Positions 3,057-56,327 of a DNA stretch of 64,000 bases are shown here, piece after piece. A program made the position numbers and the translations under genes. The notes beneath the pieces were generated by a model that saw only the letters and a list, made by a program, of their open reading frames with translations, made no database searches and was not told the DNA's origin. The DNA is taken from contig NCJL01000002.1 in the NCBI GenBank assembly GCA_002278935.1, forward strand, positions 272,267-336,266, in the 5' to 3' direction. This DNA is from Gallionellales bacterium 39-52-133. Its GTDB lineage: Bacteria > Pseudomonadota > Gammaproteobacteria > Burkholderiales > Gallionellaceae. Positions within the stretch are counted from its first letter, which is position 1; each line of letters starts with the position of its first letter.

Positions 3057-3150
3057 CATAATTTGTCGAACTATTTAATGTTTTATTGATACCGGATTAA
3101 TATAAAAAAAATATCTGTGTTGTGACAGATTTGAATTCGAAGGTGTGTTC

Positions 3151-3903
3151 ATGAGTGATTCGATGCAAGGCAAAGTGATATTGGTAACCGGGGGCGCAAA
3201 ACGCGTGGGCGCTGCAATCAGCCGGCGGCTGCATGCAGCGGGTGCAAATATTGCGCTGCACTACCGTTCTTCCGCGCAGGAGGCCTTGACACTGCAGGCC
3301 GAGTTGAATGCAAAGCGTGCGGATTCGGTGCTGTGCGTGCAGGCTGATCTGCTGGATATGCATGATTTGCCCGGGATGGTAACGGCAACCGTCAAGCATT
3401 TTGGCCGGCTGGATGGCCTGGTCAATAATGCGTCCAGTTTTTATGCAACCACGCTGGCGGAGGTGGATGAGACGCACTGGTCCGATCTGCTCGGCACCAA
3501 TCTGAAAGCGCCATTGTTCCTGGCGCAGGCCGCCGAGAAAGAGTTGCGCAAGCATCATGGTGCCATCGTCAATATTGTCGATATTCATGCCGAGCGGCCG
3601 ATGCAGGGGCATCTGGTATACAGCGTGGCCAAAGCCGGACTGGTGGCGCTGACCAAGGCGCTGGCGCAGGAACTGGCACCGCAGGTGCGGGTGAATGCGG
3701 TGGCGCCTGGCGTGATTATCTGGCCGGAGCAGGGCAATTGGGAAAATGAAGAACGGCGCAGGCAGATTGTCGAACATACGCTGCTTAAACGCGAAGGCGA
3801 ACCGGACGATATTGCAAAGACGGTGCAATTTTTGCTCGGCAGCGCGCCGTATATCACCGGGCAGGTGATTGCGGTGGATGGCGGACGCAGTATTAATTTG
3901 TAA
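3151..3903 (+). CDS. Pteridine reductase (PTR1-like short-chain dehydrogenase)
   Basis: VTGGAKRVGAAISRRLHAAGANIALHY Rossmann motif and YSVAK catalytic motif, with strong resemblance to PTR1-type SDRs. GAAGG lies 8 nt upstream of the ATG at 3151; the ORF track begins at the GTG at 3145. Confidence 0.8.
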   Translation: MSDSMQGKVILVTGGAKRVGAAISRRLHAAGANIALHYRSSAQEALTLQAELNAKRADSVLCVQADLLDMHDLPGMVTATVKHFGRLDGLVNNASSFYATTLAEVDETHWSDLLGTNLKAPLFLAQAAEKELRKHHGAIVNIVDIHAERPMQGHLVYSVAKAGLVALTKALAQELAPQVRVNAVAPGVIIWPEQGNWENEERRRQIVEHTLLKREGEPDDIAKTVQFLLGSAPYITGQVIAVDGGRSINL

Positions 3904-4015
3904 TGGCTTTAAGGGTTTCCTGCCAGATACATCAGCTAATGATAAAATAACACCAATTCTTTGTTTTATTTCAATTGTACAAACGCTTGCAGGAAATTCA
4001 GGATACGTTGAACAA

Positions 4016-4081
4016 GCCCTTCGACAAGCTTAGGGCGAACGGTTATTTGATGAAATCCGTTCGTGCTGAGCTTGTCGAAGC
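4016..4081. repeat. Solo hairpin made of two inverted copies of the 26-nt 'CCCTTCGACAAGCTCAGGGCGAACGG' repeat
   Basis: Left arm 4016-4042 and right arm 4057-4081. The same 26-mer brackets the GIY-YIG gene at 5528-5936. Confidence 0.7.
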
Positions 4082-4141
4082 ATGAGCGGAGCGCTCCTGA
4101 TTCGGATTTTTATAAATGGATTCTGCAAGTAACATTTAATT

Positions 4142-4990
4142 ATGAACGCTATCACACAACCCATCCATTTCGAGTATCGCTCGACCAATTTCAACCGTTT
4201 GCGCGGCAAGCTGGAGCAGCTTGTTGGCAAGGCCATCGGCGATTTCAATATGATCGAGGAGGGCGATGTGATCATGGTGTGTATGTCGGGTGGCAAGGAC
4301 TCGTACACGCTGCTGGAGGTTTTACGTGCACTGCAGAAACGCGCGCCAATCAAGTTCAGGCTGATTGCGATGAATCTGGACCAGAAGCAGCCGGGTTTCC
4401 CCGATCACATTTTGCCGGACTACTTCAAATCGATAGGTGTGGAATATCACATTGAAACGCAGGACACCTATTCCATTGTCAAGGAAAAAATCCCCGAGGG
4501 CAAAACCACCTGTTCGCTTTGCTCACGCCTGCGTCGCGGCATTATCTACAAGGTGGCGGGTGAGCTGGGGGCGAACAAGATTGCGCTGGGTCATCACCGC
4601 GATGACATGATAGAGACTTTATTTTTGAATATGTTCTTTGGCGGCAAGCTCAAGGCGATGCCGCCCAAACTGGTGACCGACAAGGGCGACCATGTGGTGA
4701 TTCGTCCGCTGGCCTATTGCGCCGAGAAGGATATCGCCAGCTTTGCACGCGCGATGGAGTTTCCGATTATTCCGTGCAACCTGTGCGGCTCGCAGGAAAA
4801 TCTGCAGCGCCAGAATATCAAGGAAATGCTGAACGAGTGGGAGCATCAGTATCCGGGCCGCAGACAAACCATCTTCACCTCGATGCAGAACATCAAGCCG
4901 TCGCATCTGATGGACAGCACTCTATTCGATTTCAAGGGCATTAAAGTGGGTGATGTGGTGGCAGAGGGTGATGTGGCGTTTGACGACTAA
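4142..4990 (+). CDS. ttcA: tRNA 2-thiocytidine(32) synthetase
   Basis: PP-loop motif CMSGGKDS and the [10 protein letters not shown] and PCNLCGSQ cysteine motifs. 282 aa, typical TtcA length. Confidence 0.9.
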
Positions 4991-29200: not shown

Positions 29201-29700
29201 TGGGTGACGGCAGTGTTGCGCCGGTGGTCGACCTGGTTGAATTGCTGCGTGTACCCGCACGCAACAGCCTTGCAGAGCATGCCATGAGCCAGATGGCTGC
29301 TGCCGAGCAGCACGGCGCGGTGCATGACGCGCATACCGCGCTGGTCGTGGATGACTCGCTCACCGCACGGCGGGCGGCTGCAAAGGTAATGAAGGATGCG
29401 GGCTATACGGTACGCACCGCAATCGACGGGCTGGAAGCGGTTACAATTTTGCAGAACTTTGTACCCGATATCATGCTGGTGGATATGGAAATGCCGCGCA
29501 TGAACGGACTGGAACTGACAGCCCATGTGCGCAATGCAGAGCGCACAAAACATACACCCGTGATTATGATCACCTCACGCTCGACTGAAAAACACCGCCA
29601 GCAGGGCAAATCGGCAGGTGTGGATGTATACCTCACCAAACCCTTCAGTGACGAGGTTCTGCTGGATCATGTGGTGCGCCTGACCGGACAGCAGGCATGA
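26281..29700 (+). CDS. chpA: ChpA/PilL-like hybrid histidine kinase (Hpt, CheA kinase core, CheW, receiver)
   Basis: One Hpt (MRAAHTLKGAANTVG), N-box LRNSVDHGID, G1 DDGVGLD, G2 GRGVGMD, a CheW-like segment, and a C-terminal receiver VVDDS...LVDMEMPRMNG...TSRS...YLTKP. Confidence 0.85.
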   Translation: MDMHEENLSQFGLLAAEAVDELWGMLAGNPQAEAGAGQQLPRYIEIMQRIEEAAASSAMDGLQSLFAMVEANLQTIYSEGRELNPAEQLLLGEWPELLMAYVISGGDESSVEPLLKNMSSASWPLPMGEDDIDMLRQMLLVSAATDISGAEHIAVPQENNLPEDSYASSSVINAEEPVVISVDSRAMQDVPLVGIQVVDSEMISMLNKEFALMTAQINEDLSAAVSKHFSPQERRAALANYGELIERLAMATESVGLLVLSKVFLRVRQMLDEIEADVSPQQQALLEQLPGRVAAYLVWPNDSSACAALIDLLTDTAWQTPVPQDDAPHWIAALSNLEIHEGAVEKLERQTEATAEDVSLALPDDINAELLDGLLQELPLQTAAFTTAIEHISAGHGTASDVNRAMRAAHTLKGAANTVGIKGIANLTHHVEDILVALSEESALPDAELAAMLVNAGDCLEAMSEALMGVGPVPEQARDVFQAVLDYANRIDREGVNVVATPVPSTVEPGAVAGEADHAKKFNEINNLQDKGQGLRVSAPVVDELLRLAGETLISNSQIQDRLRQTVKQAEAMQNQQKLVAQLVAELENLVDIRGVAAPQQRERVKDDFDPLEFDNFSELHTVTRRLIEASADSQQIMSQVNEQFTTLGDLLEVQQRLQMANQHAVIRTRMVPVSSIVSRLQRSVRQTCRLLDKQVELVISGESTNIDSNVLTDLMDPLMHILRNSVDHGIDDPQARVAAGKPPAGRIELSFAREGNSIVVRCKDDGVGLDYESIRRIAESKGMIAPERNPTPEELARLILVNGFSTRDETTQVSGRGVGMDIVYNRVLQMKGTLALNSARGLGLTVELRLPATLLSAHTLIVRHGEKLIAVSSRGVEDIHYVTLDQIEKIGSQPVYRVGNAVHNLVRLETLLALPVDRREADRLGFPILLTRMDDGSLSAILVQEVIDGREVVLKNFGHHVPKIQGVIGAVILGDGSVAPVVDLVELLRVPARNSLAEHAMSQMAAAEQHGAVHDAHTALVVDDSLTARRAAAKVMKDAGYTVRTAIDGLEAVTILQNFVPDIMLVDMEMPRMNGLELTAHVRNAERTKHTPVIMITSRSTEKHRQQGKSAGVDVYLTKPFSDEVLLDHVVRLTGQQA

Positions 29701-30188
29701 TGCAACTCTCGCGCCCTGTCTCCAGCAGCACAGCGGCATTACTAAAAATTAACGGATTAAATTTGCTGCTGCCCCAGGGCGAGATACGCACACTCGAATC
29801 CGCCACCGAGTTGAACACCATTGCGCCAGCCCTGTGCAGCGCGGGCTGGATTGCCTATCACCAGAAAAGCTGGCCGGTTTACTGCCTGTCGGAAGACTTG
29901 AGCTTGTTGCAGGCAGTTCCGCCGGAGCGCAGGGCCTGCGCCATGATGACAATGGGCGCAGGCTTTATCGGAATCCTCTGCGATGACATGATTATTCTGA
30001 AAGATTTTATTGCCCAGCGCCATCAGCTGCCGCAGGCGATGAAACTGCCAGCCACACCAATATTGCATCTGGTCAATTATGAGCAAGGCATTGCCTGTGT
30101 CAGCAACGCAAAGCAGATGACTGCCTATATCGAACATCTGGTTTTGAATACAGAAGAACAAGGAAAGGTTCGCGATGGCGGAGAGTAA
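29697..30188 (+). CDS. Divergent CheW-like protein (ChpC-like) 1
   Basis: ATGA overlap with the chpA stop. The pattern LLLPQGEIRTLE...AGWIAY...WPVYCLSEDL loosely follows the CheW fold. Confidence 0.55.
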   Translation: MMQLSRPVSSSTAALLKINGLNLLLPQGEIRTLESATELNTIAPALCSAGWIAYHQKSWPVYCLSEDLSLLQAVPPERRACAMMTMGAGFIGILCDDMIILKDFIAQRHQLPQAMKLPATPILHLVNYEQGIACVSNAKQMTAYIEHLVLNTEEQGKVRDGGE

Positions 30189-30621
30189 CGCCTGGATACT
30201 GGACTTTGGCCAGCACTTCACCGCAGCCGTGGGTGCGCGCGAGGTACTGCATTTGCTGGATGTGCACTCGACCTTTCTCGTGCCATGCACGCCAAAATAT
30301 TGCAACAGCGTGGTCGCCTGGCGAGACCGCTTGTTGCCGGTTATGGATATGGCCTCCAGACTTGGGGGCATGACACAGCAGGCAAAATTTATTGCAGTCG
30401 TCGGCTATCAGCAGCGGCGTGGAGAGTATCCGCAGTTTGGCGCGCTATTGCTGAGCAGCCCGCCATTACAGGCAACAGTGAACGATGAACAAGCCTGCAA
30501 GCTGCCGGAAAATGCCCAGGTCTGGAACGGGCTGGCCATGGCATGTTTTGACTTTCACGGCGAAGCCGTGCCTGTGTTGGATATCAATAGGTTGTTTAAT
30601 ACGGCGCCAATTTCTGCTTGA
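30175..30621 (+). CDS. Divergent CheW-like protein (ChpC-like) 2
   Basis: Overlaps the previous gene by 14 nt. The pattern FTAAVGAREVLHLLD...VPCTPKYCNSVVAWRDRLLPVMDMASRLG matches the CheW-domain core. Confidence 0.55.
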   Translation: MAESNAWILDFGQHFTAAVGAREVLHLLDVHSTFLVPCTPKYCNSVVAWRDRLLPVMDMASRLGGMTQQAKFIAVVGYQQRRGEYPQFGALLLSSPPLQATVNDEQACKLPENAQVWNGLAMACFDFHGEAVPVLDINRLFNTAPISA

Positions 30622-30688
30622 TCAAGTTTTCCCCAGATAGCATAGGTTTACCAGATAAGTCGATTTGAGTCAGCGTTATTTGTTAAAT

Positions 30689-30760
30689 ATAATCAAATAT
30701 TTGTATATTTTCACTCGTACACAGCCAAAAACTGCTTCAACCTGTTCCTGCATGCATTGC
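30689..30760 (+). repeat. Left copy of the direct repeat bounding the AT-rich island
   Basis: ATAATCAAAT-N33-CTGCTTCAACCTGTTCCTGCATGCATTGC. The partner copy is at 32436-32505. Confidence 0.65.
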
Positions 30761-30835
30761 AGAAAATACATTGGAGGCCTTGCTTGTTGCATTAGAAAAT
30801 TTGACTGTGGTTTGTAAGGCCCTGATGGTTGTTCA

Positions 30836-30855
30836 TTTCTACAACTTCGTTGGGC
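30836..30855 (+). repeat. Cassette-upstream motif, copy 1 (degenerate)
   Basis: TTTCTACAACTTCGTTGGGC, 17 nt before the ATG at 30873. Confidence 0.55.
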
Positions 30856-30872
30856 GCTATGGGGAACTGAAC

Positions 30873-31085
30873 ATGAATAAATTTTCTGGTCTCGATTTTG
30901 CGGTAGGCGTATGCGTGTGGATTGGTTGCTTGTTTATCGCTATAACGAGTATGGAATGTCTTAAGTTCCGCACCTGCGGGGCTGGTGATATGTTCTTGTT
31001 CGGCATCATTGCCGTTGGCATGCTCGCTCCAGCCTGGGTGGCGATGTTGATCTTTTCGGGGGTATTCGGGGGTATTCGGGGGTAA
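30873..31085 (+). CDS. Hypothetical small two-TM membrane peptide (70 aa)
   Basis: ATG after motif copy 1 and two hydrophobic helices. The 3' end and stop codon lie within a 10-bp x3 tandem repeat. No recognisable family. Confidence 0.3.
   Translation: MNKFSGLDFAVGVCVWIGCLFIAITSMECLKFRTCGAGDMFLFGIIAVGMLAPAWVAMLIFSGVFGGIRG
31055..31084 (+). repeat. Perfect tandem repeat, 10 bp x 3 (TTCGGGGGTA)
   Basis: Three exact copies at 31055-31064, 31065-31074 and 31075-31084. Confidence 0.9.
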
Positions 31086-31196
31086 GAAATAAATGCAGGC
31101 CCCGTTGAGTACACACACGGCCGTTGGTTTTCTATTTGCTCCGTGCAAAAGAGTAAAAGTCATCGGGGGCGCAGGTGCTGGAACCTTCGAAGTCGC

Positions 31197-31259
31197 TAGG
31201 GTCGGGTCTTACATTTTACTTTCGAATTTTACAATGTGAAATGTAAGACTCGACCCTAA
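31197..31259. repeat. Long imperfect hairpin (22-nt arms)
   Basis: TAGGGTCGGGTCTTACATTTTA ... TGAAATGTAAGACTCGACCCTAA, with one or two mismatches and an ~18-nt loop. Confidence 0.6.
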
Positions 31260-31292
31260 TAGTTATTCCGACAGGATCCCAATGATTCCGAT

Positions 31293-31331
31293 GCGGCTTA
31301 TGAAAAGAGTTTTTATACAACGTCGTTGGGC
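31293..31331 (+). repeat. Cassette-upstream motif, copy 2
   Basis: GCGGCTTATGAAAAGAGTTTTTATACAACGTCGTTGGGC, 12 nt before the ATG at 31344. Confidence 0.7.
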
Positions 31332-31343
31332 GTAAATTTAATT

Positions 31344-31766
31344 ATGCGATATTCGATCATTCTCGTCCTGTTTCTTGTGTCTTGCTCTCAGTCACAGGAC
31401 ACAACTTATTGGATTCAATGGGCAAAAGGCACCGATAATTTTACTTGTCTAGAGAAAGTTTTAGAACGTAGTGATAATGAAAATCAATATTTTGAACGCA
31501 GATCATTGAAAGATTACTTCGTTGAGCAACATACCCAAGATGGAATATCTTTCCGTTCGTATATCTTGAAGGGGGTATACAAATGCGGTGCAAATTTATG
31601 GGGACCTGCTGGAGTGCAATATTTCTCTGGGCCGATGGCTACAGGAAAAATTGTGGCCAGTTATGAGAGGCCCATCAATGAAGTTGTCGAGAATTTTTTG
31701 GCTTTTGAAGCAGGTTCAGGAACTGAGGCTACGTATAAGGCCACATGCACAGAGGTCGGAAAATGA
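31344..31766 (+). CDS. Hypothetical lipoprotein (140 aa)
   Basis: Signal peptide with lipobox LVSC at residues 10-13 (the full N-terminus reads MRYSIILVLFLVSCSQ). No recognisable family. Confidence 0.5.
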   Translation: MRYSIILVLFLVSCSQSQDTTYWIQWAKGTDNFTCLEKVLERSDNENQYFERRSLKDYFVEQHTQDGISFRSYILKGVYKCGANLWGPAGVQYFSGPMATGKIVASYERPINEVVENFLAFEAGSGTEATYKATCTEVGK

Positions 31767-31866
31767 GCAAGTCTAACCAGTCCATAAGGATTTCTCAGTC
31801 AAGATAAATTTTGCAAATCAGTGCGAATCCACCTTCTAAGCGGTGGTGCACTTGGAATTAGAATTC

Positions 31867-31905
31867 ACCGCTTATGAAAATACTTTTTATACAACGTCGT
31901 TGGGC
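31867..31905 (+). repeat. Cassette-upstream motif, copy 3
   Basis: ACCGCTTATGAAAATACTTTTTATACAACGTCGTTGGGC, 35/39 identical to copy 2 and 9 nt before the ATG at 31915. Confidence 0.7.
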
Positions 31906-31914
31906 ATCGCAAAC

Positions 31915-32334
31915 ATGAATCAGATCTTCGAGCCATCAAATGATCTCGAGCGAGCTCTAGTTGCAGCCAAGCAAGGACACCTTCCAGTGCCCGCTTTTAT
32001 GCAGGCGCTTCTATCGTCAAAAGTCTTTGTATTAATCGATAAAGACATTGGGCCAAATGGTATCTGGGATAACAGTGCAACCCCCATGGTGCTCTTAAAT
32101 TCTGAGGGGGCGCCGGTCCTCGCAATGTTTACGGCACCAGATCGAACAGGTGAATGGGCGAAGCAACAACCACGGTTCAGTTTCGGGTTACTGACAGACT
32201 TTGCGTGGTTACTAAAGGGAATAGGATCAAACGTTGGTGTCGTCATTAATCCAGGCCTCTCGGTAGGCTTGGAGATGCAACCGTCAGCCGTGGCGCAACT
32301 CAAACAAGGGGCGGCAAGCGAAGTGAAGCCTTAA
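31915..32334 (+). CDS. SseB-family-like small protein (139 aa)
   Basis: N-terminus NDLERALVAAKQGH..VPAFMQALLSSKVFVLID and later APVLAMFT resemble the SseB N-terminal domain pattern. Confidence 0.55.
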   Translation: MNQIFEPSNDLERALVAAKQGHLPVPAFMQALLSSKVFVLIDKDIGPNGIWDNSATPMVLLNSEGAPVLAMFTAPDRTGEWAKQQPRFSFGLLTDFAWLLKGIGSNVGVVINPGLSVGLEMQPSAVAQLKQGAASEVKP

Positions 32335-32435
32335 TCAATAGGGTCAGGCTGAGGTAATCCTCATTTCACGGATAGTTTAATTGAGAACATAACCTCCAAC
32401 CTTTCAAAATTCAACGGAATAGCAATTTATTTATT

Positions 32436-32505
32436 ATAATCAAATGCTTGCTCTTGCAGGTAAAGTTTATCTAAGATCTGCTTCAACCTGCTCCGCATGC
32501 ATTGC
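32436..32505 (+). repeat. Right copy of the direct repeat bounding the AT-rich island
   Basis: ATAATCAAAT-N32-CTGCTTCAACCTGCTCCGCATGCATTGC. Confidence 0.65.
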
Positions 32506-32621
32506 GCAGGTATTTGTTAGTCTGCAAGCCGGATTGAGAGACACTTGCTTCGTCGTGGTTGACAGGCGAGCGGCTAGCCGATAAATTCGCGCCTTTCGTT
32601 TTTAACCCCCTGGAGAAATAC

Positions 32622-53957: not shown

Positions 53958-54034
53958 GGGCCCTTAGCTCAGTTGGTTAGAGCAGAGGACTCATAATCCT
54001 TTGGTCCGCGGTTCAAGTCCGCGAGGGCCCACCA
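53958..54034 (+). tRNA. ileX: tRNA with CAU anticodon, most likely tRNA-Ile2 (lysidine-modified, ileX-like)
   Basis: 77-nt cloverleaf GGGCCCT/AGGGCCC acceptor stem, CTCATAA anticodon loop, GGTTCAAGTCC T-arm and encoded CCA. It sits directly downstream of rpoD, as E. coli ileX does, and resembles that gene from memory. Confidence 0.85.
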
Positions 54035-54040
54035 ATTAAA

Positions 54041-54080
54041 CAAAGGCTTGCGATTAAATCCGCAAGCCTTTGTCGTTTTT
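54041..54080 (+). terminator. Rho-independent terminator after the tRNA
   Basis: CAAAGGCTTGCG-loop-CGCAAGCCTTTG followed by TCGTTTTT. Confidence 0.75.
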
Positions 54081-54379
54081 ACCGGTTGAATTCATCAGGG
54101 CGGTATGGTTATCCGGTAAGCCGAGTAATATTCTGGTGGCAACTTGCCAGTGCCGGAAGGAAGTGCTTGTTGTGTAACATATTGTTTTTATTTAACTTTA
54201 TGGGTGATTGCAAACTTGATCAGTAGAATCAATAAATTTTGCATTGCTGCACTCTAATCGGCGGCTTGTAAGATATCTTCCTACAAAAGAATTGGAAATA
54301 CTCTGATTCTTATCTATTCTTCCTGCATGCAAAATGCAGCTGTCAATAAGGACATCATTTGTCATCAGGGAGAACGAAA

Positions 54380-54700
54380 ATGACTGCTAACCAAATGCAC
54401 TCAGAAATTAAAGATGCAAACCTTTCTTATATGTTATTAGCTCAACAGATGATTAAGGATGACAAAGTATCTTCAATATTTCGACTGGGTGTAAGTGAGG
54501 AAATGGCAAATCTGATTGCAGGTTTGACACCCGCGCAGATGCTTAAAATGGCTTCAACAAACATGATGTTATGCCGTTTGCGTTTCGACGAACGTTTGCT
54601 GCTCAATATGATATCTGATTTTAATAAAGACAGAATGATGTCACAGGCACATGCAACCATACTGATGACTGCACAGCCAGTAGAAGCATTGGCTGCTTAA
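54380..54700 (+). CDS. flhD: Flagellar master regulator subunit FlhD
   Basis: From the ATG at 54380 (AGGGAG upstream): ...IKDANLSYMLLAQQMI..D...A.FRLG...E....I..L...Q..K.A....MLCRLRFD. 106 aa. Confidence 0.9.
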   Translation: MTANQMHSEIKDANLSYMLLAQQMIKDDKVSSIFRLGVSEEMANLIAGLTPAQMLKMASTNMMLCRLRFDERLLLNMISDFNKDRMMSQAHATILMTAQPVEALAA

Positions 54701-54724
54701 TGAAAACGGGATATTGGAGGCGAT

Positions 54725-55270
54725 ATGCGCAGTAAGAGTGTAGTCAATGAGGCACGTGAAATTCAGATATGTATCGAGTTGATTAATCTGGGCGCGCGCC
54801 TGCAATTATTGCAGGAAGAAACTACATTGAGCCGTGAACGTTTGCTTCGACTTTATAAAGAGGTAAAGGGTGCATCGCCTTCCAAAGGTATGTTGCCTTA
54901 TTCGACCGACTGGTTTATGAGCTGGTTGCCAAACATACATTCATCCATGTTTATGGACATTCACCAGTATGTAGTTACCCACGCTGGTGTATCGGGTGTT
55001 GAAGCACTTATTAAAAGTTACCGACTGTACAAAGAGCAGCTAGGCATCTCCGATGATGAGCCGGTACTAAGCATTACGCGAGCATGGTTCATGTTGAGAT
55101 TTTTTGATGCAAAGTTGTTGCAGTTAACGGACTGCAAGGAGTGTGGCGGGTATTTTGTTGTACATACTGATGAATTATGCAACAACTATAATTGCGGAAT
55201 CTGTCGCCCTCCGTCACGTGCAGGGAAAACAAAAAAAGCCGCACTACAAGAATTACAGGCATCAGCTTAA
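54725..55270 (+). CDS. flhC: Flagellar master regulator subunit FlhC
   Basis: N-terminus KSVVNEAREIQ..IELI.LGARLQ.L and the zinc site CKECGGYFV...YNCGIC. 181 aa. Confidence 0.9.
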   Translation: MRSKSVVNEAREIQICIELINLGARLQLLQEETTLSRERLLRLYKEVKGASPSKGMLPYSTDWFMSWLPNIHSSMFMDIHQYVVTHAGVSGVEALIKSYRLYKEQLGISDDEPVLSITRAWFMLRFFDAKLLQLTDCKECGGYFVVHTDELCNNYNCGICRPPSRAGKTKKAALQELQASA

Positions 55271-55293
55271 GGCACGCAGTCAAACTAAACATA

Positions 55294-55342
55294 AAAACGT
55301 CGTTAATACTGAGTTAAATTATCAGTATTAACGACGTTTTTT
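55294..55342 (+). terminator. Long hairpin terminator after flhC
   Basis: 19-nt perfect arms AAAACGTCGTTAATACTGA / TCAGTATTAACGACGTTTT followed by a T-run. Confidence 0.75.
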
Positions 55343-55472
55343 ATTTAAGATGCACGTTATACTTCATAAAATAGCATTGGTTTTATGCACTGTTTACGAG
55401 TTAGATATATAAAATCCCTGCTAATCTGTTAACGCATTTCGGTGGATATGCAATTTTTGGAGGACTGGCTTC

Positions 55473-56327
55473 ATGTTGGTGATAATTGGATATGTGGTGG
55501 TCGTACTTTCCGTATTTGGCGGTTTCGCACTGGCTGGCGGGCACTTGCACTCGTTATGGCAGCCCGTAGAGGTGTTAATGATTGGCGGTGCGGGTTTTGG
55601 CGCATTTCTGGTTGGTAATTCCGGCCCGGCATTAAAAGCCACATTCAAAGCGTTGCCCAAGGTATTCAAGGGAGCAAAATATACCAAGGACAATTACATG
55701 GAGTTGATGGCATTGCTTTATGAGTTGCTTGGAAAAATTCGTAAAGAAGGTCTCATGTCGATTGAAGGGGACGTAGAAAACGCAGAAGAAAGTCCACTTT
55801 TTGCCAAATATCCAAAAATTCTAGAAGATCATCATGTGATTGAATTTATAACGGATTATTTGCGCATTATGGTTAGCGGCAACCTCAATGCAATGGAGCT
55901 TGAAAATCTGATGGAAGTGGAAATTGAAACGCATCATCACGAAGAAATGGTGCCTTCCCATGTAATTGCAAAGCTGGGTGATGCCTTGCCTGCATTTGGT
56001 ATTGTCGCGGCAGTTATGGGGGTAGTTCACACCATGGGATCTGTTGGAATACCTCCGGCTGAGCTTGGTGTATTGATTGGTGCCGCGCTCGTTGGTACCT
56101 TTTTGGGTATTTTGTTGGCCTATGGGTTTATAGGTCCGCTGGCAAATTTGCTGGAGCAAAAAGCGGATGAGTCCACCAAGATGTTCCAGACAATCAAGGT
56201 TACGTTGCTGGCGAATTTGAATGGATACGCTCCTGCCATGGCGGTTGAATTTGGCCGCAAAGTACTCCTGTCAACAGAGCGTCCCGGCTTCACAGAAATG
56301 GAAGCATTTATCAAGCAAAAACGCTAA
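55473..56327 (+). CDS. motA: Flagellar motor stator protein MotA
   Basis: 284 aa, four TM helices, a conserved cytoplasmic loop and the C-terminal plug/TM3-4 pattern (ALVGTFLGILLAYG). Confidence 0.9.
   Translation: MLVIIGYVVVVLSVFGGFALAGGHLHSLWQPVEVLMIGGAGFGAFLVGNSGPALKATFKALPKVFKGAKYTKDNYMELMALLYELLGKIRKEGLMSIEGDVENAEESPLFAKYPKILEDHHVIEFITDYLRIMVSGNLNAMELENLMEVEIETHHHEEMVPSHVIAKLGDALPAFGIVAAVMGVVHTMGSVGIPPAELGVLIGAALVGTFLGILLAYGFIGPLANLLEQKADESTKMFQTIKVTLLANLNGYAPAMAVEFGRKVLLSTERPGFTEMEAFIKQKR

What the first reader, a model, noticed from the sequence alone, without database searches (positions are those of the whole stretch)
30622..32621. AT-rich cassette-like island: three small unrelated ORFs with a shared upstream motif, bounded by a direct repeat, between the Pil-Chp operon and the peroxiredoxin gene
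What the sequence shows: from the stop of the last CheW-like gene (30621) to the peroxiredoxin start (32622), the DNA is visibly more AT-rich than both flanks. The segment holds three short same-strand ORFs with no similarity to each other. They are a 70-aa two-TM peptide (30873-31085), a 140-aa lipoprotein with an LVSC lipobox (31344-31766), and a 139-aa SseB-family-like protein (31915-32334). Each ATG is preceded, 9-17 nt upstream, by the same motif ending in GTTGGGC (30836-30855, 31293-31331, 31867-31905). Copies 2 and 3 are 35/39 identical. The whole segment is bracketed by a direct repeat, ATAATCAAAT-N32/33-CTGCTTCAACCTGYTCC(T)GCATGCATTGC, at 30689-30760 and 32436-32505, 1747 bp apart. 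GTTGGGC fits the integron attC R' core GTTRRRY. GTCTAAC (31771-31777, 5 nt after the ORF2 stop) fits the R'' core RYYYAAC, which gives an attC-sized 135-bp spacer. Inference: these may be small cassettes separated by a recombination-type site. That would make this an integrase-less cassette cluster (CALIN-like), or an array of orphan immunity-type genes comparable to recombinase-associated immunity arrays. Lipoprotein, small-membrane and SseB-like products would fit envelope-facing immunity proteins. Caveats: by eye I could not find the long imperfect stem that a genuine attC requires, no R''-type core follows ORF1, and no integrase lies in this window.
Basis: partly seen in the sequence, partly recalled or inferred. 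Interest (0 to 1): 0.7.

Follow-up and report, generated by a model that had tools for sequence, protein, structure and literature searches.

The report
Stranded integron cassettes with IS scars
A 1.9-kb insert between a chemotaxis-like operon and a peroxiredoxin gene, whose content differs between strains, holds three small genes, at least two of them former integron gene cassettes that have lost their recombination sites; the motif upstream of each gene is the leftover tip of an insertion sequence that jumps specifically into such sites.

Summary
The island (30622-~32523) has 43.8% GC against 50.8% for the window. It holds three real small genes, a thrice-repeated motif and a flanking imperfect direct repeat.

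ORF2 and ORF3 are former integron cassettes. Their homologues (79% and 82% aa identity) sit between bona fide attC sites, with the same G|TTRRRY 5' boundary. ORF2 still carries its attC R'' box, GTCTAAC.

The shared motif is not an attC. It is the terminal 13-36 bp of an IS1182-family insertion sequence, followed by the cassette's own core site (GTTGGGC). In other genomes this IS, and small derivatives of it, sit exactly in the R' box of attC sites, flanked by GTT.

A home-made attC covariance model recovers held-out attCs and the class 1 aadA1 attC. It finds no attC in the island or anywhere in the 64-kb window. No intI is present. By definition the island is therefore not a CALIN.

The junction is empty in three more distant Gallionellaceae relatives. 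A conspecific strain (97% identical flanks) carries two different genes there, each preceded by a longer remnant of the same IS.

Best reading: a decayed, immobilised cassette array. Nothing supports the immunity-gene idea.

The parts
30622..30827 (+). Non-coding leader of the island. It is shared with the conspecific strain L027 at 87-91% identity and is absent from relatives with an empty site. It contains a promoter-like site, TTGAGT-N17-TATAAT, at 30665-30693.
30678..30765 (+). Copy A of the ~86-bp imperfect direct repeat. It comprises box 1 (TATAATCAAAT) and box 2 (CTGCTTCAACCTGTTCCTGCATGCATTGC).
30836..30848 (+). IS1182-family terminal-repeat remnant 1. Only the outermost ~13 nt, TTTCTACAACTTC, remain.
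   Evidence: (20/20 identical to L027 remnant 1)
30849..30855 (+). Core site GTTGGGC (cassette 5' boundary G|TTGGGC) ahead of ORF1.
30873..31085 (+). ORF1, a 70-aa two-TM peptide. It is a real gene family. Its cassette origin is inferred only from the 5' boundary.
31197..31258 (.). 62-nt near-perfect hairpin of unknown role. One arm recurs after gene 1 of the L027 island.
   Evidence: (z = -5.1)
31289..31324 (+). IS1182-family terminal remnant 2. It matches positions 1754-1789 of the complete 1789-bp IS in L087 (36 nt, 91.7%).
31325..31331 (+). Core site GTTGGGC ahead of ORF2.
31344..31766 (+). ORF2, a 140-aa Adhesin_E-like lipoprotein and former integron cassette. Its 79%-identical homologue is flanked by attCs in L160.
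31771..31777 (+). R'' box GTCTAAC. This is all that remains of ORF2's attC. Homology with the L160 cassette stops one base after it.
31872..31898 (+). IS1182-family terminal remnant 3. It matches IS positions 1763-1789 (27 nt, 92.6%).
31899..31905 (+). Core site GTTGGGC ahead of ORF3. The homologous cassette in L034 has the same core and the same 9-nt spacing to the ATG.
31915..32334 (+). ORF3, a 139-aa SseB-family protein and former integron cassette. Homology with the L034 cassette ends inside the R'' box, after GCC at 32328-32330.
32425..32512 (+). Copy B of the imperfect direct repeat.
32559..32587 (+). ahpC promoter-like site TTGACA-N17-TAAATT. It is conserved in the relatives with an empty site, and marks the return to ancestral DNA (near-identical to L027 from 32524).

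Best explanation
The island is a fossil cassette array. Three small genes, of which at least ORF2 and ORF3 were once mobile integron gene cassettes, now sit in the cheW-ahpC intergenic region of one Gallionellaceae species. They have no integrase and no attC sites.

Each gene keeps the 5' end that travels with a cassette: the G|TTGGGC core site and a 9-17-nt leader. In place of the preceding cassette's attC, each is preceded by the outermost 13-36 bp of an IS1182-family insertion sequence. In real integron arrays this IS inserts precisely into the R' box of attC sites, flanked by GTT, in a fixed orientation. Every downstream cassette therefore acquires an 'IS end + GTTRRRY' junction.

Later deletions, with scattered breakpoints, removed the transposase gene, the far IS end and the attC stems. 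The motif is therefore a scar, made of IS inverted repeat plus cassette core. It is neither a functional attC nor a regulatory site.

What is shown:
- the identity of the motif;
- the cassette origin of ORF2 and ORF3;
- the absence of attC and intI;
- the empty site in relatives and the different cargo in a conspecific strain.

What is inferred:
- ORF1 was a cassette;
- the genes are co-transcribed from the promoter-like site in the leader (30665-30693);
- the two island versions are old alleles exchanged between strains by homologous recombination in the conserved flanks;
- the array is no longer mobile.
For: 1. Motif is an IS end.
- A scan of 185,579 species genomes gave 21 hits, about the number expected by chance. 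About 15 of them are non-coding and share an extended consensus, cttTTTCTACAAC(C/T)TCGTTGGGC, across several phyla.
- A complete copy (L012:3117-4867) encodes a 522-aa transposase. It hits NCBIfam IS1182 at 4.9e-76, and Pfam DDE_Tnp_1_6 and DUF772.
- blastn of a complete 1789-bp copy (L087:333-2121) against the window matches copy 2 over 36 nt (91.7%) and copy 3 over 27 nt (92.6%), both running exactly to the IS terminus.

2. The IS targets the attC R' box.
- In L087, L159, L096, L088, L141 and L023, the 3' end of an attC detected by the covariance model coincides with the CGTT|GA(A/G/C)GCTGTAGAAAAA junction.
- In 22 metagenome copies, 21 have (N)TCGTT after the IS end and one (L079) has CACGTT. 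This is followed mostly by RRRY-like bases.
- intI fragments lie in L033, L020 and L009.

3. Cassette origin.
- The ORF2 homologue in L160 is flanked by attCs of 48 and 46 bits. Nucleotide homology runs from CGTT through the ORF and stops just after GTCTAACC.
- The ORF3 homologue in L034 lies in an attC array, with GTTGGGC-N9-ATG identical in layout.
- L033 has an intI fragment next to another ORF3 homologue.

4. No attC.
- Model R1, built from 13 attCs, recovers held-out attCs at 21-57 bits and the class 1 aadA1 attC at 56.5 bits, strand-specifically.
- In the window the best score is 9.8 bits, inside the ahpC coding sequence. The best score within the island is 5 bits. The whole window gives nothing.

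5. No IntI-like sequence in the window.

6. Insertion and variation.
- L028, L029/L030 and L031 (CheW 66-72% identical) have cheW followed directly by the ahpC promoter.
- L027, whose flanks are 97% identical, carries a PhnB-like gene and a 115-aa gene instead. Each is preceded by a 176-186-nt remnant of the same IS.

7. Remnants of 27-305 nt with scattered breakpoints in other loci indicate ordinary deletional decay.
Against: - ORF1's closest homologue (66%) is not in an attC context, so its cassette origin rests only on the boundary.
- Both conspecific strains lack every attC yet hold entirely different genes. If turnover was driven by IntI, the attCs must have been lost independently in both lineages. 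If it was not, another exchange mechanism is needed.
- Cassette homology stops at the R'' box in three cases (ORF2, ORF3, L027 gene 1). That looks less random than simple decay.
- The spacers between R'' and the IS remnants match nothing I hold.
- The ~86-bp flanking direct repeat and the 62-nt hairpin are not explained.
- The attC model is home-made. The rest of the source genome could not be scanned for intI, attC arrays or intact IS copies.
Confidence: 0.75

Rival explanations
1. The IS-end/core junction is an active site: a portable attI-like docking site. The IS terminus plus the flanking GTT (CTACAAC-NTC-GTTRRRY) mimics an attI simple site. An integron integrase supplied in trans could then insert or exchange cassettes next to any copy or remnant of this IS, including outside integrons. 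This would explain cassette turnover at an attC-less locus.
For: - The layout is the same as the attI1 simple site CTAAAAC-AAA-G|TTRRRY. That sequence was confirmed as the attI1-aadA1 junction in 1422 plasmid records.
- The window and L027 share the leader and a first IS remnant with the same left boundary, and both have CGTTGGGC. The gene that follows differs completely between them.
- All five genes in the two strains have an IS end immediately upstream.
- Related Gallionellaceae and Nitrosomonadales MAGs do carry integron arrays and intI fragments.
Against: - The resemblance was noticed post hoc and is short (6 of 7 positions plus spacing).
- IntI insertion would leave each incoming cassette's attC in place, and none is present.
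- Under this model only the first cassette should abut an IS end, yet each one does.
- The second remnant in L027 is followed by GGCTAGCC, not by GTTRRRY.
- L088 and L141, which show different cassettes after an identical IS end, are explained just as well by multiple IS copies in one array.
Confidence: 0.12
2. One reading: an integrase-less cluster of still-mobilisable cassettes (CALIN-like), in which the repeated motif and the intergenic spacers are atypical attC sites.
For: - GTTGGGC and GTCTAAC fit the R' and R'' consensus, and the cassette-like gene layout is present.
- The genes are demonstrably cassette-derived.
Against: - There is no attC on either strand with a model that detects both environmental and class 1 attCs.
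- The heuristic search for an R''/R' pair plus stem finds none.
- The spacers fold no better than shuffled sequence.
- Beyond the 7-bp core, the motif is IS sequence.
Confidence: 0.04
3. An array of orphan immunity-type genes: envelope-facing immunity proteins kept next to a recombination site.
For: The products are small and partly envelope-located: a 2-TM peptide and a lipoprotein.
Against: - No immunity or toxin family was hit. The only Pfam hits are Adhesin_E and SseB.
- No toxin, Rhs/CDI gene or recombinase is nearby.
- Homologues occur as ordinary integron cassettes among unrelated functions such as TspO, CSD, glyoxalase and CMD.
Confidence: 0.04
4. The motif is a shared cis-regulatory element (operator, promoter or translation signal) for three co-regulated native genes.
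For: It lies at a constant short distance from each start codon and contains a small palindrome, CAAC-N3-GTTG.
Against: - The same sequence is the terminus of a transposase-encoding IS in many phyla.
- The genes are not native, since the site is empty in relatives.
- No promoter-like site overlaps the motif.
Confidence: 0.03

Closest known systems
Integron gene cassettes, and CALINs (clusters of attC sites lacking an integron-integrase; Cury et al. 2016, PMC4889954)
   Same: Small, promoter-less, same-strand genes. Each starts a few nucleotides after a G|TTRRRY core site. No integrase is nearby. ORF2 and ORF3 are homologous to cassettes lying in true attC arrays.
   Different: A CALIN is defined by at least 2 attC sites, and this island has none. 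Only one R'' box and three R' half-sites survive, so the genes can no longer be excised by the canonical attC x attC reaction.
Fused or immobilised cassettes, and cassettes stranded at secondary sites (e.g. PMC4670013; discussed in PMC4889954)
   Same: Cassettes that have lost part or all of their attC and become fixed. Cassettes located outside an integron platform.
   Different: In this island, all three attCs are gone and each has been replaced by an IS-end scar. The locus is a chromosomal intergenic hot spot whose content differs between conspecific strains.
IS1111-attC group of insertion sequences (Tetu & Holmes 2008; Post & Hall 2009; both cited in PMC12444791; see also PMC11187229)
   Same: Insertion sequences that specifically target attC sites of gene cassettes, in a fixed orientation.
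   Different: Those ISs encode DEDD (IS110/IS1111) transposases guided by a seeker RNA, and they lack classical terminal repeats. The element found here encodes a DDE transposase of the IS1182 family. It has ~15-bp terminal inverted repeats, is flanked by GTT on both sides, and has ~100-190-bp MITE derivatives.
IS1182 family (NCBIfam NF033551; Pfam DDE_Tnp_1_6 + DUF772)
   Same: Transposase domain architecture and length (522 aa), and terminal inverted repeats.
   Different: It scores 256.6 bits against a curated cutoff of 270, so it is a divergent subgroup. I found no paper in the searchable library that links the IS1182 family to attC targeting. The window holds only 13-36-bp end remnants and no transposase.
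attI1 simple site of class 1 integrons
   Same: An inverse-core-like box, a 3-nt spacer and the GTTRRRY core. Compare CTAAAAC-AAA-GTTRRRY with CTACAAC-NTC-GTTRRRY.
   Different: The resemblance covers only 17 nt. There are no DR1/DR2 integrase-binding repeats and no adjacent intI. No function has been tested.

Membership tests
Integron gene cassette | 5' boundary TTRRRY (the remainder of the core site) immediately upstream of a single ORF | tested here: met
   GTTGGGC lies 17, 12 and 9 nt before the three ATGs. Homologous cassettes show the same layout: L034 has GTTGGGC-N9-ATG and L160 has GTTAGAC-N12-ATG.
Integron gene cassette | attC site (R''-L''...L'-R', foldable) at the 3' end of each ORF | tested here: not met
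   attC model R1 scores at most 5 bits in the island and nothing across the whole window. The heuristic search is negative, and fold z-scores are about -0.5. Only the R'' box GTCTAAC remains after ORF2.
Integron gene cassette | Homologues found as attC-flanked cassettes elsewhere | tested here: met
   Met for ORF2 (L160/L161, attCs on both sides) and for ORF3 (L034/L035, and L033 next to an intI fragment). Not met for ORF1 (L163).
CALIN | At least two attC sites | tested here: not met
CALIN | No integron integrase nearby | tested here: met
   tblastn of IntI1 against the 64-kb window gives no hit at E<=1e-3. The same search detects intI fragments in L033, L020 and L009.
Complete integron | intI gene, attI site and Pc promoter | tested here: not met
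   No intI. A promoter-like site exists in the leader, but attI sites are not conserved and cannot be recognised.
IS1182-family insertion sequence (for the motif) | Terminal inverted repeat matching that of complete, transposase-encoding copies | tested here: met
   Window 31289-31324 matches IS positions 1754-1789 (91.7%). Window 31872-31898 matches IS positions 1763-1789 (92.6%). Copy 1 is 20/20 identical to the end of L027 remnant 1 plus its flanking core site.
IS1182-family insertion sequence (for the motif) | DDE transposase gene and a second, inverted end | tested here: not met
   tblastn of the transposase against the window shows only noise. No inverted partner end is found within 4 mismatches. 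The window copies are solo end remnants, not ISs.
IS1111-attC group | DEDD (IS110-type) transposase | tested here: not met
   The transposase of the complete copies is DDE_Tnp_1_6/IS1182.
Polymorphic-toxin immunity gene array | Recognisable immunity domains, with a toxin or a dedicated recombinase in the neighbourhood | tested here: not met
   The only Pfam hits are Adhesin_E and SseB. The neighbouring genes are the Chp operon and ahpC.

The most novel reading that the evidence does not exclude
The IS1182-family element found here may be more than a parasite of attC sites. Its terminus plus the GTT it is flanked by reconstitutes an attI-like simple site (CTACAAC-NTC-G|TTRRRY). Each copy or remnant could then serve as a portable docking site where an integron integrase acting in trans inserts or swaps cassettes. 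This would let cassette arrays form and turn over at ordinary chromosomal loci, such as cheW-ahpC, without a resident integron platform.
Probability: 0.1. Interest if true: 0.8.

Novelty: new variant of a known kind. Interest (0 to 1): 0.45.

Why it matters
For the window itself the result is modest. A small accessory islet of decayed integron cassettes explains a motif that looked like a new recombination site.

Two things could interest integron and transposon specialists.

First, the scar led to a widespread DDE (IS1182-family) insertion sequence and its miniature derivatives, which insert exactly at the attC R' box across several phyla. The only attC-targeting ISs I found in the literature I could search are the mechanistically unrelated IS1111-attC group.

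Second, two conspecific strains hold different ex-cassettes at the same attC-less, integrase-less locus. This raises the question of how cassette content turns over outside integrons, and shows that attC-based tools (CALIN detection) miss such fossil arrays.

Tried and rejected
- Rfam scan of 29.5-33.5 kb at E<=10: only sub-threshold microRNA-like hits on the hairpin.
- Folding both strands of the intergenic segments as DNA: only the 31197-31258 hairpin stands out, and there are no attC-like stems.
- The idea that the motif is coding (FYTTSLG/FYNFVG read in frame with the ATGs): rejected. Copy 1 is in a different frame from copies 2 and 3, and the sequence is an IS end.
- A search for transposase remains in the window: none.
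- A search for the inverted partner end, which would indicate a MITE or a passenger-carrying element, in and around the island: none.
- Comparison of the spacers and the leader with the complete IS and with all 160 fetched loci: no matches apart from L027.
- A test of whether the IS-remnant breakpoints share a GTT or other junction, which would point to IntI-mediated truncation: the breakpoints are heterogeneous.
- The hairpin as a repeated element: one copy in the window and one half-copy in L027.
- Literature search for the source assembly and for an IS1182-attC link: nothing relevant.
- The species-genome scan did not return the source genome itself (no locus with three motif copies). The GTDB representative of this species either lacks this island version or is absent from the collection.
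- The low-GC stretch at about 54 kb is flhDC/motAB, not another island.
Full report
**1. Observation**

- ORF1 (30873-31085) encodes a 70-aa two-TM peptide.
- ORF2 (31344-31766) encodes a 140-aa lipoprotein with an LVSC lipobox and hits Pfam Adhesin_E at 1.2e-8.
- ORF3 (31915-32334) encodes a 139-aa protein that hits Pfam SseB at 3.4e-13.
- ORF1 has 68 representative homologues, mostly 65-75 aa long, so it is a real gene.

The island has 43.8% GC, against a window mean of 50.8%. Only 1.9% of equal-sized windows are as low.

The motif TTTNTACAACNTCGTTGGGC occurs three times on the + strand, at 30836, 31312 and 31886. The 22-mer shared by copies 2 and 3 has no matches in shuffles.

The bracketing direct repeat is real. 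It is best described as an imperfect repeat of about 86 bp, in which a 29-nt box is 93% conserved.

**2. What the motif is**

I scanned one genome for each of 185,579 species with the motif. This gave 21 single hits, about the number expected by chance. However, about 15 of them are non-coding and share a longer consensus, cttTTTCTACAAC(C/T)TCGTTGGGC. They come from Treponema, Leptospirales, Xanthomonadales, Nitrosomonadales and other Proteobacteria.

The surrounding sequence shows this to be the terminal inverted repeat of an insertion sequence.
- L012 holds a complete copy (3117-4867). Its 522-aa transposase hits NCBIfam IS1182 (4.9e-76; 256.6 bits against a cutoff of 270) and Pfam DDE_Tnp_1_6 plus DUF772.
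- L053, L087, L096, L109, L118 and L159 hold further full-length copies.
- L010, L016, L023, L025, L088 and L141 hold derivatives of ~100-190 bp that consist of the two ends only.

Every copy whose two junctions are visible is bounded as ...CGTT|GA(A/G/C)GCTGTAGAAAAA ... TTTTTCTACAACNTC|GTTRRRY. It is therefore flanked by GTT on both sides.

I aligned the complete 1789-bp copy in L087 against the window. Copy 2 (31289-31324) matches IS positions 1754-1789 at 91.7%. Copy 3 (31872-31898) matches positions 1763-1789 at 92.6%. Both run exactly to the IS terminus. Copy 1 retains only about 13 nt of IS.

Copies 2 and 3 share a C-to-A change (TTTTTATACAAC) seen in no other copy I hold, so they come from one IS lineage.

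**3. The IS targets attC sites**

I built a covariance model (R1) from 13 attC sites taken from the fetched loci.
- It recovers held-out attCs at 21-57 bits.
- It recovers the class 1 aadA1 attC at 56.5 bits on the correct strand, against 6.1 bits on the other strand.

In L087, L159, L096, L088, L141 and L023, the 3' end (R' box) of a model-detected attC coincides with the IS or MITE junction.

In 22 IS ends from metagenomes, 21 are followed by (N)TCGTT and one (L079) by CACGTT. Mostly RRRY-like bases come next. This is the G|TTRRRY boundary of the next cassette.

intI fragments lie in L033, L020 and L009.

The element is therefore an attC-R'-specific IS of the IS1182 family. The only attC-targeting ISs I could find in the searchable literature are the DEDD-type IS1111-attC group.

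**4. The genes are ex-cassettes**

ORF2's only foreign homologue (79% aa identity) lies in L160/L161 between two attCs of 48 and 46 bits. Nucleotide homology with the window begins at CGTT, runs through the ORF, and ends one base after the R'' box GTCTAAC.

ORF3's homologues lie in attC arrays.
- L034/L035 carry the series TspO | SseB | 84 aa | CSD-DUF1294 | CMD.
- L033 has a homologue next to an intI fragment.
- The boundary is GTTGGGC-N9-ATG, exactly as in the window. In the window, homology ends inside the R'' box.

ORF1's nearest homologue (66%) is not in an attC context. Its cassette origin is inferred only from its 5' boundary.

**5. No attC, no integrase**

With filters off, R1 scores at most 9.8 bits in 28-35 kb, and that hit lies inside the ahpC coding sequence. 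The best score within the island is 5 bits. The whole window gives no hit. A heuristic search for an R''/R' pair plus stem is also negative. tblastn with IntI1 finds nothing in the window.

The island therefore fails the defining feature of a CALIN, which needs at least 2 attCs (PMC4889954). It is not an integron.

**6. Comparative context**

The source is a Gallionellaceae MAG. Five public assemblies are 100% identical across the island.

Relatives with 66-72% identical CheW (L028, L029/L030, L031) have cheW followed within 120-200 nt by the conserved ahpC promoter (TTGACA-N17-TAAATT; window 32559-32587). These sites are empty.

An 81% relative (L162) has unrelated AT-rich DNA at this position.

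A conspecific strain (L027, flanks 97% identical) shares the 206-nt leader at only 87-91% identity and carries different cargo:
- a PhnB-like protein (PF06983, 8e-34) and a 115-aa protein;
- each preceded by a longer remnant of the same IS (176 and 186 nt), which still includes the first transposase codons on the opposite strand;
- neither followed by an attC.

Solo remnants of 27-305 nt with scattered breakpoints occur in many other loci, which points to ordinary deletional decay.

**7. Explanation**

The island is a fossil cassette array.
- Cassettes that once lay in an integron array colonised by this IS acquired 'IS end + G|TTRRRY' junctions.
- Deletions then removed the transposase, the far IS ends and the attC stems.
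- The shared motif is a scar.
- The genes are probably transcribed from the promoter-like site in the leader (TTGAGT-N17-TATAAT, 30665-30693). This step is inferred.
- The leader has diverged three- to four-fold more than the flanks. This suggests that the two island versions are old alleles moved between strains by homologous recombination in the flanks. This step is also inferred.

I put this explanation at 0.75.

**8. What remains open**

- How the array reached this locus.
- Why cassette homology stops at the R'' box in three cases.
- The origin of the spacers, of the ~86-bp direct repeat and of the 62-nt hairpin (z = -5.1).
- How content turned over without attCs.

One speculative lead concerns the IS end plus its flank, CTACAAC-NTC-GTTRRRY. 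It has the same layout as the attI1 simple site, CTAAAAC-AAA-GTTRRRY, whose sequence I confirmed in plasmids. If an integrase can use such junctions, the IS would be a portable cassette docking site. I rate this at about 0.1.

The immunity-array idea has no support: there are no immunity or toxin domains and no toxin neighbours.

Noticed in passing
L012:3117-4867; L087:333-2121; L053:292-2075; L096, L159, L109, L118 (complete copies); L088/L141:901-1004, L010:2917-3089, L016:1428-1591, L023:7344-7508, L025:1169-1342 (MITEs): A widespread IS1182-family DDE insertion sequence (~1.75-1.8 kb) and its ~100-190-bp MITE derivatives. They sit exactly in the R' box of integron attC sites, flanked by GTT, in one orientation relative to the cassettes. 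I found no description of attC targeting by this IS family in the searchable literature.
   Followed up: partly
window 31197-31258; L027:7391-7422: A 62-nt near-perfect hairpin (26-nt arms, DNA fold z = -5.1) lies downstream of ORF1. One arm recurs just after gene 1 of the conspecific island. There are no other copies in the window or in any fetched locus. Its role is unknown.
   Followed up: partly
window 30678-30765 and 32425-32512: An imperfect direct repeat of about 86 bp brackets the cargo. A 29-nt box in it is 93% identical between the copies. Copy B aligns to the conspecific strain's copy A at 72% over 86 columns. The repeat is absent from relatives with an empty site. A diverged copy B also exists in L027. 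Its origin (target duplication, att-like site or Campbell-type insertion) is unresolved.
   Followed up: partly
window 31771-31778, 32328-32330; L027:7380-7407: Homology between the window cassettes and attC-flanked relatives ends at or inside the R'' box. L027 gene 1 is followed by a collapsed R''-R' pair, GCCTAACaacgagtcGTTGGGG, with no stem between the boxes. attC loss here seems to start at R'' rather than at random positions.
   Followed up: partly
window 31050-31085: The 3' end of ORF1 contains a tandem duplication, GGGGTATTCGGGGGTATTCGGGGG, which encodes GVFGGIRG. It may be a recent slippage event that lengthened the C-terminus.
   Followed up: no
L162:2489-2728: In a relative whose CheW is 81% identical, the DNA after cheW is a different AT-rich sequence with no ahpC promoter within 240 nt. 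The cheW-ahpC junction looks like a general insertion hot spot in this clade.
   Followed up: no
L088:1-1006 and L141:1-1006: Two metagenome contigs share an identical IS end (127 nt, 100%) and a MITE (96%). Between these lie two unrelated cassettes of exactly equal length (772 nt). This may be coincidence or an assembly-graph effect.
   Followed up: no
L009:5267-5531: An intI fragment (matching IntI1 residues 262-311) directly abuts a 68-nt remnant of the same IS. The IS, or its decay, has therefore also disrupted integrase genes.
   Followed up: no
window 29697-30188 and 30175-30621: The two small genes at the end of the Chp-like operon overlap by 14 nt. The first has no Pfam hit, and the second is a weak CheW (35 bits). 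The same pair is conserved in all relatives examined.
   Followed up: no
window ~54000-56000: The lowest-GC stretch of the window (41%) holds flhD/flhC-like and motA/motB genes downstream of rpoD. These are ordinary genes, not another island.
   Followed up: yes
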